Shown here: positions 21,693 through 45,054 of the stretch, in pieces | Layout of the letters: each line of letters starts with the position of its first letter | Position numbering within the stretch: position 1 is the stretch's first letter | Origin: a phage | Strand: one strand, 5' to 3' | Assembly (NCBI GenBank): GCA_021469345.1 | Contig: GCA_021469345.1_3049.1 | DNA length: 64,000 nt | The notes under the pieces: generated by a model | Told to the model about the DNA's origin: nothing | Seen by the model: the letters and a program-made list of their open reading frames with translations, nothing else | Database searches by the model: none | Position numbers and translations under genes: made by a program

Positions 21693-21764
21693 TACATTCT
21701 GTATATTACCATTCTAAGCTATCGTTCCCTTCTTATCATTCCCTAAAATATTTTTCACAAAGTT

Positions 21765-21794
21765 GTTTACAACAAGTTCAAACCGTGGTATTAT
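21765..21794 (+). promoter_or_regulatory. early promoter (GTTTAC-N18-TGGTATTAT)
   Basis: GTTTAC 21765-21770; TATTAT 21789-21794. Confidence 0.5.
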
Positions 21795-21824
21795 TAACAT
21801 ATGAATTGCCTTTGAGGAATTGAT

Positions 21825-41841: not shown

Positions 41842-42135
41842 ATGAAAAAATTTATCTTTGCTACAATTTTTGCTTTGGCTTCTTGTGCTGCTCAGCCTGC
41901 TATGGCAGGTTATGATAAAGATTTGTGCGAATGGTCTATGACTGCGGATCAGACTGAGGTTGAAACTCAAATTGAAGCAGATATTATGAATATCGTTGAG
42001 CGCGATCGTCCTGAAATGAAAGCTGAAGTGCAAAAACAACTTAAGTCTGGTGGTGTAATGCAGTATAATTATGTTCTGTATTGCGATAAAAACTTTAATA
42101 ACAAAAATATCGTAACCGAAATCACAGGTGAATAA
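41842..42135 (+). CDS. sp: Spackle periplasmic protein (superinfection exclusion)
   Basis: 97 aa from ATG 41842 (RBS GAGGAG); signal peptide MKKFIFATIFALASCAAQPAMA. Confidence 0.8.
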   Translation: MKKFIFATIFALASCAAQPAMAGYDKDLCEWSMTADQTEVETQIEADIMNIVERDRPEMKAEVQKQLKSGGVMQYNYVLYCDKNFNNKNIVTEITGE

Positions 42136-42136
42136 T

Positions 42137-42769
42137 ATGATTTATTATATGCACAAAAATCCACCGTTTAAATACGGTAAATTTCCTGATGCACAATGTT
42201 ATAATATAACGCCTGATGAAAATAACCGTGGATATCTTATTGGCACAATTTTTGTAATTGTTAAAGATAACGAAATCGTTGCCTGGGCAGATTTTAAAGG
42301 TACAACACATGATGTTAATCCGGTGCCTTTCACATATTACAATATAATGGATTTGGCATATGATTATAATTGGTTTAATCATGACAATTTAGTTCATATT
42401 GAAGGCGTAGGATTTGACATCTCTTATTCTAGTTATTCGTTGTGCCCTATGAGCCGAGCTTATAAAGAGCCTGAATATTTTTCATTTCGTCGGCGTGTAG
42501 ACTTTAAACGCAGTACAGAGTATGTCGGTGGAATCTTTGTTAAAGATAATCGAATTACTCGCATTATTTATCCTTTGGGCTTTGGTCAAAAAGATATTGA
42601 TGTTGATTTAGACTTTACTGAAAACAGCATTAATCATATTGCTTCTGTGTATTTTGATATTGATCACAAAATTGTAATATGTGGATATGAATTACCATCC
42701 GAAAAACAGTCTAAAGTAAATGTTTCTATTGATGACCAAATTTTTAATGCTTTTATGAATAGAGGTTAA
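42137..42769 (+). CDS. hypothetical protein at the 61.2 position (AdfA-like, reported anti-DarTG factor)
   Basis: 210 aa from ATG 42137; positional correspondence only. Confidence 0.55.
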   Translation: MIYYMHKNPPFKYGKFPDAQCYNITPDENNRGYLIGTIFVIVKDNEIVAWADFKGTTHDVNPVPFTYYNIMDLAYDYNWFNHDNLVHIEGVGFDISYSSYSLCPMSRAYKEPEYFSFRRRVDFKRSTEYVGGIFVKDNRITRIIYPLGFGQKDIDVDLDFTENSINHIASVYFDIDHKIVICGYELPSEKQSKVNVSIDDQIFNAFMNRG

Positions 42770-42937: not shown

Positions 42938-43966
42938 ATGTCATCAATACCTTGGATTGATAATGAGTTTGCATACCGTGCATTAGCTCATTTACCTAAA
43001 TTCACACAAGTAAATAATAGTTCAACTTTTAAATTGCGGTTTAGATGCCCAGTGTGTGGAGATTCAAAAACCGACCAAAATAAAGCCCGTGGATGGTATT
43101 ATGGTGATAATAATGAAGGAAATATTCATTGTTATAACTGTAACTATCATGCACCAATCGGAATATATTTAAAGGAGTTTGAACCTGATTTATATCGTGA
43201 GTATATCTTTGAAATAAGAAAAGAAAAAGGTAAAAGTCGTCCAGTAGAAAAACCTAAAGAACTTCCTAAACAACCTGAGAAGAAAATAATTAAATCTCTT
43301 CCGTCATGTGTTCGATTAGATAAACTGGCGGAAGACCATGCAATTATAAAATATATAAAAGCTCGTTGTATTCCAAAGGATAAATGGAAATATCTTTGGT
43401 TTACAACTGAATGGCCTAAATTAGTTAATAGCATAGCACCGGGAACATATAAAAAGGAAATACCTGAGCCTCGTCTTGTTATTCCAATTTATAATGCTAA
43501 TGGAAAAGCTGAGTCTTTTCAAGGACGTGCATTAAAGAAAGATGCTCCTCAAAAATATATCACCATCAAAGCTTATCCTGAGGCAACAAAAATCTATGGA
43601 GTCGAACGAGTTAAAGATGGTGATGTATATGTTCTAGAAGGACCTATAGATTCACTTTTTATTGAAAATGGTATAGCTATTACGGGCGGTCAATTAGACC
43701 TAGAAGTTGTTCCATTTAAAGATAGACGTGTGTGGGTTTTAGATAATGAACCTCGTCATCCTGACACTATTAAGCGAATGACTAAATTAGTTGATGCAGG
43801 AGAAAGGGTTATGTTTTGGGATAAATCTCCCTGGAAATCAAAAGATGTTAATGATATGATTAGAAAGGAAGGTGCAACCCCTGAACAAATTATGGAATAT
43901 ATGAAAAATAATATTGCCCAGGGGTTAATGGCTAAAATGCGGTTATCTAAATATGCTAAGATTTAA
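42938..43966 (+). CDS. 61: DNA primase gp61
   Basis: 342 aa; N-terminal zinc ribbon CPVCGDS...CYNC; TOPRIM-like core. Confidence 0.95.
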   Translation: MSSIPWIDNEFAYRALAHLPKFTQVNNSSTFKLRFRCPVCGDSKTDQNKARGWYYGDNNEGNIHCYNCNYHAPIGIYLKEFEPDLYREYIFEIRKEKGKSRPVEKPKELPKQPEKKIIKSLPSCVRLDKLAEDHAIIKYIKARCIPKDKWKYLWFTTEWPKLVNSIAPGTYKKEIPEPRLVIPIYNANGKAESFQGRALKKDAPQKYITIKAYPEATKIYGVERVKDGDVYVLEGPIDSLFIENGIAITGGQLDLEVVPFKDRRVWVLDNEPRHPDTIKRMTKLVDAGERVMFWDKSPWKSKDVNDMIRKEGATPEQIMEYMKNNIAQGLMAKMRLSKYAKI

Positions 43967-44163
43967 ATTAACCCAACTAAAGCAAATGCTAAATCTACAA
44001 ATGTATCAAGAGTAACTACTGGAATACTAACGCCATGAGCAATAGCAACTGGCGATAAAACAAAATTCCAAAGTAAAATTCCTACCATAGCAGAAATAGT
44101 AAAAGCTATACGCTTTTTATTACCTTTGATGGCATTAACAAGTGCCATTAATTTTTGTACCAT
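43963..44163 (-). CDS. small membrane protein, only minus-strand gene in the window
   Basis: 66 aa; minus-strand RBS AAAGGAGG 4 nt before ATG; two hydrophobic segments; stop overlaps gene 61 stop convergently. Confidence 0.5.
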   Translation of the reverse strand: MVQKLMALVNAIKGNKKRIAFTISAMVGILLWNFVLSPVAIAHGVSIPVVTLDTFVDLAFALVGLI

Positions 44164-44265
44164 ATGTCCTCCTTTAAATTAATATTTATCGCAAAACGTG
44201 TTAGTATTACTATCAAATACATATGATGAAGAATTGTATAATTCGTTTTTTGCTGCAATAAATGA

Positions 44266-45054
<789 letters not shown>

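What the first reader, a model, noticed from the sequence alone, without database searches (positions are those of the whole stretch)
43963..44163. Only opposite-strand gene in 64 kb: a small membrane protein between primase and dam
Every other credible gene is on the + strand. This 66-aa minus-strand ORF has a near-consensus SD (AAAGGAGG) 4 nt before its ATG and two hydrophobic segments. Its stop codon overlaps the gene 61 stop convergently, and the 110-bp region upstream of it is a divergent intergenic region shared with dam. Small membrane proteins in this configuration are often immunity, exclusion or holin-like factors.
Basis: seen in the sequence. Interest (0 to 1): 0.55.

Follow-up and report, generated by a model that had tools for sequence, protein, structure and literature searches.

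The report
Late small membrane gene beside primase
The minus-strand ORF is a real, conserved T4-family gene (called dam.1 in one T4 annotation, missing from the T4 reference) that most likely makes a small inner-membrane protein late in infection; it is already catalogued, and nobody knows what it does.

Summary
The 66-codon ORF at 43963-44163 (-) has AAAGGAGG 4 nt before its ATG. Its stop overlaps the gene 61 stop (TTAA). It fills the only sizeable gap in + strand coding.

The window is a Tequatrovirus. The same ORF is intact in T4, unannotated in the T4 RefSeq but named dam.1 in T4T, and belongs to PHROG 2024 (function unknown).

It is a real gene. dN/dS is about 0.15. Essentially every Tequatrovirus record carries it. 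Divergent homologues (33-68% identity) occupy the same position, convergent with primase, in eight Tevenvirinae genera. Outgroups, where gene 56 follows 61 directly, lack it.

A T4 late-promoter box (GATAAATA, 44183-44190) lies 19 nt upstream of the ATG. TAAATA recurs 12-22 nt upstream in 12 of 13 loci although the flanks differ. T4 early and middle transcription uses only the other strand. It is therefore almost certainly a late gene, which argues against an Imm/Sp-type early exclusion role.

Family-wide there is one solid transmembrane helix, a basic N-terminus and a K/R-poor C-tail. The conserved block (WNF..P.A...G..LP....D/E) sits at the periplasmic face.

There is no significant match to holins or any characterised family. 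Function is unknown; my inference is a late envelope or lysis accessory factor.

The parts
43963..44163 (-). CDS, 66 aa. Orthologue of T4T dam.1 (unannotated in the T4 RefSeq) and member of PHROG 2024.
   Evidence: ORF listing. 95% identical ORF in T4. Named dam.1 in HM137666. phrog_2024 E=5.4e-31 over the full length. dN/dS about 0.15. Found in 696 phage records.
44168..44175 (-). Shine-Dalgarno AAAGGAGG, 4 nt before the ATG.
   Evidence: Read directly from the sequence. GGAGG or AGGAG with a 5-9 nt gap is found in all 13 loci compared.
44183..44190 (-). T4-type late-promoter box GATAAATA (consensus TATAAATA, positions -13 to -6). The predicted start site is near 44177, giving a leader of about 14 nt.
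   Evidence: ATAAATA occurs only 8 times in 128 kb of the window (both strands), against 17-29 expected per strand. The three + strand copies precede rI.-1/rI, gene 49 and soc. TAAATA lies 12-22 nt upstream of the ATG in 12 of 13 loci from 8 genera, in otherwise unrelated flanks. Position -13 is the least conserved position of the box (PMC2988020; PMC1524935). The start-site position is inferred.
44110..44163 (-). Codons 1-18: basic N-terminal region (5 K/R, no D/E), predicted cytoplasmic. Its sequence is poorly conserved across genera.
   Evidence: Charge counts and the positive-inside rule. Conservation 0.40. AF2 helix 2-12.
44038..44109 (-). Codons 19-42: the one robust transmembrane helix. 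It ends in SPVAIA, an AXA-type motif.
   Evidence: Hessa-scale sum +0.7 here and -2.4 to +3.7 in homologues. AF2 helix 16-42. Small residues at -3 and -1 in most homologues (alignment).
44005..44070 (-). Codons 32-53: the family signature W-N-[FY]-x-x-x-P-x-A-x-x-x-G-x-x-L-P-x-x-x-x-[DE]. This covers the outer half of the helix and the juxtamembrane loop.
   Evidence: Alignment of 20 diverse homologues. Mean top-residue fraction is 0.61 here against 0.31-0.40 elsewhere. W32, N33, P38, A40, G44 and P48 are 85% or more conserved.
43966..44037 (-). Codons 43-66: K/R-free C-terminal tail with two Asp residues and a short helix (52-63). It is predicted to be periplasmic or interfacial and is marginal as a second transmembrane segment.
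43963..43966 (.). TTAA: the overlapping, convergent stop codons of gene 61 and the small ORF.
   Evidence: The overlap is not conserved elsewhere: 14-24 nt overlap, a 9-18 nt gap, or about 200 nt in other genera.
44126..44156 (+). Terminator-like hairpin plus T-run on the primase strand, lying inside codons 3-13 of the small ORF. It is the probable end of gene 61 transcripts.
   Evidence: Scan. Annotated 'terminator' in phage fPS-90. Present in Tequatrovirus only and not conserved in other genera.
44179..44207 (+). Candidate early promoter for dam (-35 TTAATA at 44179-44184, 17-nt spacer, -10 TAGTAT at 44202-44207). It sits back to back with the late box and overlaps it by 2 nt.
   Evidence: Annotated as 'pot. 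promoter P(E) 17.40' in the T4 record X01416 and mapped onto the window by alignment. It matches 8 of 12 consensus positions, below the scan threshold.
42938..43966 (+). Context: gene 61 (DNA primase), the invariant convergent neighbour.
44275..45054 (+). Context: dam, a variable divergent neighbour. In relatives it is absent, displaced or replaced.

Best explanation
This is the window's copy of a Tevenvirinae-specific gene (T4T 'dam.1', PHROG 2024), inserted between primase gene 61 and gene 56.

Shown:
- It is protein-coding and under purifying selection.
- It keeps its position, convergent with primase, in eight genera while the genes on its other side change.

Strongly inferred (about 0.85):
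- It is transcribed only late, from its own gp55-type late promoter (GATAAATA, 19 nt before the ATG).
- The mRNA is short-leadered and carries a strong ribosome-binding site.

Inferred (about 0.7 for membrane insertion, about 0.5 for this exact topology):
- The product inserts into the inner membrane with its basic N-terminus in the cytoplasm.
- It has one transmembrane helix (residues 19-42).
- A roughly 24-residue acidic, K/R-free tail lies on the periplasmic side.
- The helix-tail junction carries the only strongly conserved block.

Most likely mode of action (inference only, about 0.3):
- The conserved outer-leaflet/juxtamembrane block binds a larger envelope protein, such as the phage lysis or lysis-inhibition machinery or a host inner-membrane protein.
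- The protein would then modulate envelope events at the end of infection rather than form a pore itself.
For: Coding:
- dN/dS is 0.145, with variable sites by codon position 7/2/12.
- 503 records carry the ORF at 80% identity or more, against 502 records with a T4-type primase at 95% or more.
- Homologues at 33-68% identity keep the same position in Mosig-, Gapriver-, Dhaka-, Kanagawa-, Jiaoda-, Gelderland- and Moonvirus.
- In Muldoon-, Krisch-, Slopek-, Pseudoteven- and Lazarusvirus the gene after primase (gene 56 in all but Lazarusvirus, where it is an unnamed ORF) follows within 7-36 nt. In Biquartavirus the gap is only 143 nt. The gene has no room there.

Late expression:
- The ATAAATA heptamer is depleted 5-8 fold in the window.
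- All three + strand copies precede rI.-1/rI, 49 and soc. soc and 49 are documented as late-translated from promoters just upstream of their ribosome-binding sites (PMC3014915).
- TAAATA lies 12-22 nt upstream of the ATG in 12 of 13 loci, with a per-locus chance of 1-4%.
- Three different upstream contexts within Tequatrovirus each keep NATAAATA.
- T4 early and middle transcripts all have the opposite polarity (PMC2988020).

Membrane and topology.

Family: phrog_2024 E=5e-31, and all distant relatives also fall in phrog_2024.
Against: - I have no direct transcript or protein evidence. The one T4 dRNA-seq start-site table I found is not held as text.
- The box has G at -13, and the activity of variant late promoters in vivo is unquantified.
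- One lineage (L008) has only TATTAATA.
- The topology rests on a crude hydrophobicity sum and an AF2 model of moderate confidence (pLDDT 73).
- In this window's protein the tail is hydrophobic enough that a helical hairpin cannot be excluded.
- The functional guess has no homology support. Decades of T4 rapid-lysis (r) mutant screens did not, to my knowledge, map a locus here, which argues against a major lysis-inhibition role.
Confidence: 0.7

Rival explanations
1. The first 42 residues are a Sec signal peptide (or a releasable SAR-type anchor, as in T4 RI). Signal peptidase I would cut after A-I-A42 and release a 24-residue hydrophobic acidic peptide (HGVSIPVVTLDTFVDLAFALVGLI) at the periplasmic face. 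That peptide, not a bitopic protein, would be the active species.
For: - There is a basic n-region.
- Pro lies at -5 and small residues at -3/-1 (P38, A40, A42). The aligned columns are A at -3 in 15 of 20 homologues and A, S or T at -1 in 18 of 20 (alignment).
- The conserved block straddles this site.
- T4 RI has a similar 'FVLSPSIEA' end to its SAR domain.
Against: - The hydrophobic stretch (about 18-24 residues) is long for a cleaved signal and typical of an anchor.
- Thr at -1 in 6 homologues is a poor cleavage residue.
- AF2 models one continuous helix 16-42.
- The RI resemblance vanishes at profile level (hhalign probability 0.15%).
- No signal-peptide predictor was available.
Confidence: 0.15
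2. It is a true holin or pinholin (or a dedicated antiholin) that sets lysis time.
For: - It is small, membrane-embedded and probably late.
- One homologue carries the automated UniProt name 'Holin'.
- There are weak sub-threshold hits of distant homologues to phrog_11161 (E=0.012-0.065) and PF11351 (E=0.08-0.1).
Against: - It lacks the charged C-terminal cytoplasmic domain.
- No hit reaches significance.
- It is not linked to e, t or the spanin genes.
- T4-type phages already have holin T, antiholins RI and RIII, and spanins.
- To my knowledge no r locus maps here.
Confidence: 0.08
3. It is an early superinfection-immunity or exclusion factor like Imm or Sp.
For: It is a small membrane protein, and Imm and Sp are encoded in the same 64 kb region.
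Against: - It has the wrong polarity for T4 early or middle transcription.
- No conserved sigma-70 or MotA-type promoter lies upstream.
- A conserved late box lies upstream.
- There is no Pfam, PHROG or PADLOC similarity to Imm, Sp or defence families.
Confidence: 0.06
4. The main function lies in the RNA. The late transcript runs antisense into gene 61, and the 3' UTR of the 61 mRNA covers the ORF. The locus would then regulate primase or dam expression, with coding secondary or absent.
For: - The genes are convergent and overlap.
- The gene 61 terminator lies inside the ORF.
- No minus-strand terminator was found for 2.4 kb downstream of the ORF.
- T4 is known to transcribe both strands at some sites at different times.
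Against: - The substitution pattern is codon-phased and amino-acid conservation persists at 33-55% identity, where the nucleotide sequence is not alignable.
- The strong ribosome-binding site is conserved.
- The overlap and the embedded terminator are not conserved across genera.
Confidence: 0.04

Closest known systems
T4T gene dam.1 (ADJ39749.1) / PHROG phrog_2024 (unknown function)
   Same: It is the same gene. Identity to the T4 ORF is 95%, with the same position and orientation between 61 and dam. It matches the PHROG over its full length at E=5e-31.
   Different: Nothing of substance. The window copy differs from T4 by A25T, V35I and S46N. The family has no assigned function, and no held paper mentions dam.1.
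T4 late genes embedded in the early region (soc, 49, rI)
   Same: A (T/N)ATAAATA box lies 20-35 nt before a strong ribosome-binding site and ATG, inside a block of early genes.
   Different: Those three lie on the early strand and are also crossed by early read-through transcripts. This gene is on the opposite strand, so it can only be reached from its own promoter. Its box has G at -13.
T4 RI antiholin (SAR-domain protein)
   Same: Both are small envelope proteins with an N-in, C-out hydrophobic N-terminal segment that ends in FVLSP-x-(I/A)-x-A. rI also has a late-promoter box upstream.
   Different: There is no homology at profile level (hhalign probability 0.15%). RI has a 70-residue folded periplasmic domain, whereas this protein has a 24-residue tail.
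Class II/III holins and pinholins (for example S21, T7 gp17.5, T4 T)
   Same: Size class, membrane location and probable late expression.
   Different: It has no charged C-terminal domain, no significant family match and no linkage to lysis genes.
Bacterial small regulatory membrane proteins (AcrZ, MgrB, MgtS type)
   Same: A single-pass protein of 50-70 aa whose conserved part is the helix and juxtamembrane region, suggesting action by binding a larger membrane protein. This is an analogy from my own knowledge, not a test.
   Different: There is no sequence relationship. This protein is phage-encoded and its target is unknown.

Membership tests
PHROG phrog_2024 / T4T dam.1 | Significant full-length profile match | tested here: met
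   E=5.4e-31, residues 2-66 against profile positions 1-65 of 65.
PHROG phrog_2024 / T4T dam.1 | Syntenic position: convergent with, and immediately 3' of, primase gene 61 | tested here: met
   Window, T4/T4T and seven further genera.
T4 late genes (gp55/gp33/gp45-dependent) | [quoted passage not shown] | tested here: met
   GATAAATA at 44183-44190, a 7 of 8 match with the mismatch at the variable -13 position. Conserved across genera.
T4 late genes (gp55/gp33/gp45-dependent) | Transcript appears only after replication starts and depends on gp55 | not testable with these tools
   Needs strand-specific RNA data. The published T4 dRNA-seq start-site table is not held as text.
Holins | At least one transmembrane domain in a small protein | tested here: met
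   One robust transmembrane segment, residues 19-42.
Holins | Hydrophilic, highly charged C-terminal cytoplasmic domain | tested here: not met
   The C-terminal 24 residues have no K/R and end in LVGLI. The charge cluster is N-terminal.
Holins | Significant similarity to a described holin family | tested here: not met
   The window protein has no Pfam hit at E<=1 and only phrog_2024. Distant homologues give only sub-threshold hits. Foldseek and PDB searches return nothing.
Holins | Hole formation or lethality on expression; control of lysis timing | not testable with these tools
   Requires an experiment.
T4 Imm / Sp superinfection exclusion | Early expression from the early strand | tested here: not met
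   The ORF is on the strand never used by T4 early or middle transcription, and it has a late box upstream.
T4 Imm / Sp superinfection exclusion | Sequence membership (for example PF25676 T4_Spackle, the Imm family) | tested here: not met
   No Pfam, NCBIfam or PADLOC hits.
Sec signal peptide / SAR domain proteins | Basic n-region, hydrophobic core, helix breaker and small residues at -3/-1 | tested here: inconclusive
   The motif S-P-V-A-I-A|H is present and largely conserved. The hydrophobic core of 18-24 residues is anchor-like. No dedicated predictor was available.
Type I toxin-antitoxin-like small hydrophobic peptide | Dedicated cis-antisense RNA controlling a toxic peptide | tested here: inconclusive
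   The gene 61 3' UTR overlaps the ORF in Tequatrovirus, but this arrangement is not conserved in other genera. Toxicity is untested.

The most novel reading that the evidence does not exclude
A Tevenvirinae-wide envelope factor made only late has been overlooked in the T4 reference annotation. It could be an uncleaved anchor or a signal-peptidase-released 24-residue peptide. It would act at the periplasmic face on the lysis or lysis-inhibition apparatus (holin T / RI / spanin) or on a host envelope protein. That would add a new component to a classical and still incompletely explained system.
Probability: 0.12. Interest if true: 0.6.

Novelty: already known. Interest (0 to 1): 0.3.

Why it matters
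T4 is the reference phage, yet its RefSeq and GenBank master records, and the JS98 RefSeq, omit this gene. Omics studies mapped to those annotations cannot see it.

The protein has no K/R after residue 18. Trypsin would therefore leave one 48-residue hydrophobic peptide, so shotgun proteomics would probably miss it too.

The gene is kept in essentially every member of eight genera. A function at the end of infection is therefore likely to matter to the phage. It is an easy target: 200 bp with its own promoter and no overlap with essential coding sequence beyond 4 nt.

As a genome-scan finding it is ordinary. It is a catalogued hypothetical gene, not a new kind of element.

Tried and rejected
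1. Homology to a characterised family. Pfam, NCBIfam, PADLOC, PDB sequence search, Foldseek against PDB and BFVD, and an exhaustive profile search of 1.84 billion representatives returned only 50-70 aa family members, all in phrog_2024. The afdb50 library was unavailable.
2. Relationship to the T4 RI SAR domain. The pairwise hit was E=0.01 over 20 hydrophobic residues, but profile-profile probability was 0.15%. Rejected.
3. The terminator embedded in the ORF as a conserved feature. It occurs in Tequatrovirus only.
4. A T4 mutant clone (OL964745) that appears to frameshift the ORF. The same stretch has several 2-4 nt AT-type deletions, which also break dam. I judged these to be assembly errors and uninformative.
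5. Literature. No held paper mentions dam.1, and searches for T4 ribosome profiling or small-protein work found nothing relevant. The T4 dRNA-seq preprint reports 150 phage start sites including 22 antisense, but its table is not held as text. Miller et al. 2003 is not held.
6. A sigma-70-type promoter for the ORF. None reaches the scan threshold upstream of the ATG.
7. IMG/VR gave only 5 loci, too few to add diversity.

Full report
**What is there**

The window is a Tequatrovirus (T4-like) genome segment whose + strand corresponds to the T4 complement strand. Gene 61 (primase, 42938-43966) and dam (44275-45054) are 98-99% identical to their T4 counterparts.

The reported ORF is real at 43963-44163 on the minus strand. 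It encodes 66 aa. AAAGGAGG lies 4 nt before the ATG. Its stop codon overlaps the gene 61 stop through the palindrome TTAA. An 111-bp spacer separates it from dam.

It occupies the only internal stretch of more than about 170 bp that lacks a + strand ORF of at least 40 aa. None of the ten longest other minus-strand ORFs matches a phage protein family. The single caveat is a 28-aa ORF at 21714-21800 (-), identical to the hypothetical T4 gene 55.7 and also opposite-strand.

**It is a gene, and it is already catalogued**

- The same ORF is intact in T4 (95% identity). It is absent from the T4 master records NC_000866 and AF158101, but the T4T record calls it dam.1, 'hypothetical protein'.
- It matches PHROG phrog_2024, of unknown function, over its full length at E=5e-31. 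It has no Pfam, NCBIfam or PADLOC hit.
- Among eleven Tequatrovirus copies the variable sites fall 7/2/12 by codon position. Pooled pN/pS is 0.145 and the amino-acid changes are conservative.
- tblastn finds it in 696 phage records. Of these, 503 are at 80% identity or more, which matches the 502 records with a T4-type primase at 95% or more.
- Homologues at 33-68% identity lie in the same place, convergent with primase, in Mosigvirus, Gaprivervirus, Dhakavirus (unannotated in JS98), Kanagawavirus, Jiaodavirus, Gelderlandvirus, Moonvirus and in metagenomic contigs.
- The neighbour on the other side varies: dam, an extra 186-aa ORF, a homing endonuclease, a MazG-like gene, or gene 56.
- In Muldoon-, Krisch-, Slopek-, Pseudoteven- and Lazarusvirus the next + strand gene starts 7-36 nt after primase. 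It is gene 56 in all but Lazarusvirus, where it is an unnamed ORF. In an Aeromonas Biquartavirus the gap is 143 nt. The gene is therefore an acquisition of the Tevenvirinae at the 61/56 junction.
- An exhaustive profile search of 1.84 billion representative proteins found only 15 clusters, all 50-70 aa and all in phrog_2024.

**When it is expressed**

GATAAATA lies 19 nt upstream of the ATG. This is the T4 late-promoter box TATAAATA with a change at -13, which is the least conserved position. Nine of the 50 listed T4 late promoters have A there, and -13 is poorly conserved in T4 relatives (PMC2988020; PMC1524935).

The heptamer ATAAATA is strongly avoided in this early region. It occurs 3 times on the + strand and 5 times on the - strand, against 25-29 and 17-23 expected. 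All three + strand copies sit just upstream of rI.-1/rI, gene 49 and soc. soc and 49 are known to be translated from late promoters placed immediately before their ribosome-binding sites (PMC3014915). Late expression of rI is from my own knowledge.

Across 13 loci from eight genera, TAAATA lies 12-22 nt before the ATG in 12 of them, and ATAAATA in 10. The chance per locus is 1-4%, and a GGAG-type Shine-Dalgarno is always present. The surrounding sequences are not alignable between genera. Even within Tequatrovirus three different upstream contexts each keep NATAAATA.

[quoted passage not shown] I found no direct transcript evidence.

The late box abuts a candidate early promoter for dam on the other strand, overlapping its -35 element by 2 nt.

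A terminator-like hairpin for gene 61 transcripts lies inside codons 3-13 of the ORF. It is specific to Tequatrovirus.

**What the protein looks like**

- AF2 (pLDDT 73) gives helices 2-12, 16-42 and 52-63.
- Family-wide there is one robust transmembrane segment, an N-terminal flank with 4-7 K/R, and a C-terminal tail with at most one K/R (none in the window protein) and 1-2 acidic residues. The second hydrophobic stretch is unfavourable for insertion (+5 to +12 kcal/mol on a crude Hessa sum).
- By the positive-inside rule the likely topology is N-in, C-out.
- In a 20-sequence alignment the N-terminus and the inner half of the helix vary. The block W-N-[FY]-x3-P-x-A-x3-G-x2-L-P-x4-[DE] (residues 32-53) is conserved. 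The functional surface therefore faces the periplasmic leaflet, which argues against a cytoplasmic role such as head assembly.
- The end of the helix (S-P-V-A-I-A|H) also fits a signal-peptidase I site in most homologues. Cleavage releasing a 24-residue peptide, or SAR-like behaviour, remains open.
- A superficial resemblance to the RI SAR domain is not supported at profile level.

**Function**

No characterised relative exists by sequence or fold. The 'Holin' label on one homologue is an automated name. The protein lacks the charged C-terminal domain of holins, and holin-family hits are sub-threshold.

An early immunity or exclusion role conflicts with the strand and the promoter. My best inference, at about 0.3, is an accessory factor that binds a larger envelope protein late in infection. 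The lysis and lysis-inhibition machinery is the most obvious candidate. Against a major role there, classical r-mutant screens did not, to my knowledge, find a locus here.

**Verdict**

The object is an already catalogued, uncharacterised gene family. What this analysis adds is the case for late expression, the Tevenvirinae-restricted origin at the 61/56 junction, and the location of the conserved surface.

Noticed in passing
window 21714-21800 (-): A 28-aa ORF (MLIIPRFELVVNNFVKNILGNDKKGTIA) identical to the hypothetical T4 gene 55.7. It is the only other annotated opposite-strand ORF in the first 49 kb of the corresponding T4 region. It has only a weak ribosome-binding site and no late box in the 40 nt upstream.
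   Followed up: partly
window, whole; + strand 4073, 17936, 46005; - strand 59192, 56028, 54179, 44189, 42571: The late-promoter heptamer ATAAATA is depleted 5-8 fold on both strands. The three + strand copies precede rI.-1/rI, gene 49 and soc. Four minus-strand copies lie inside + strand genes with no ribosome-binding site or conserved ORF downstream, and could start late antisense RNAs.
   Followed up: partly
L017 (phage VR20) 1400-1600: A second copy of the family (the JS98/Kanagawavirus-like subtype, MGTIFYQIWKL...) lies directly after the first copy, between it and primase. It is apparently frameshifted. The family thus has two subtypes that can occur in tandem.
   Followed up: partly
window 44164-44274 and the equivalent region in L001, L002, L003, L015: The far side of the small gene is an insertion hotspot within Tequatrovirus. 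dam may be adjacent (window, T4, Manna). A 186-aa ORF may be inserted before dam (JB75, U115). A homing endonuclease may take the place of dam (fPS-90). The sequence breakpoints fall just upstream of the late box.
   Followed up: partly
L023 (JS98 RefSeq) 1474-1668; T4 NC_000866 17738-17938: The gene is intact but unannotated in two RefSeq genomes that are widely used as references.
   Followed up: yes
window 44126-44156 (+): A terminator-like hairpin for the primase transcript is embedded in the 5' coding part of the convergent gene. The 61 mRNA 3' UTR is therefore antisense to nearly the whole small ORF.
   Followed up: partly
window 42128-42769 (+): The gene 61.2 homologue is 213 aa here and 208 aa in T4, but only 118 aa in phages Manna and JB75. 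This indicates size variation in that hypothetical gene among close relatives.
   Followed up: no
L027 (T4 mutant clone OL964745) 301-890: Several 2-4 nt deletions in AT-rich runs break both dam and the small ORF in this deposited assembly. They look like assembly errors rather than biology.
   Followed up: partly
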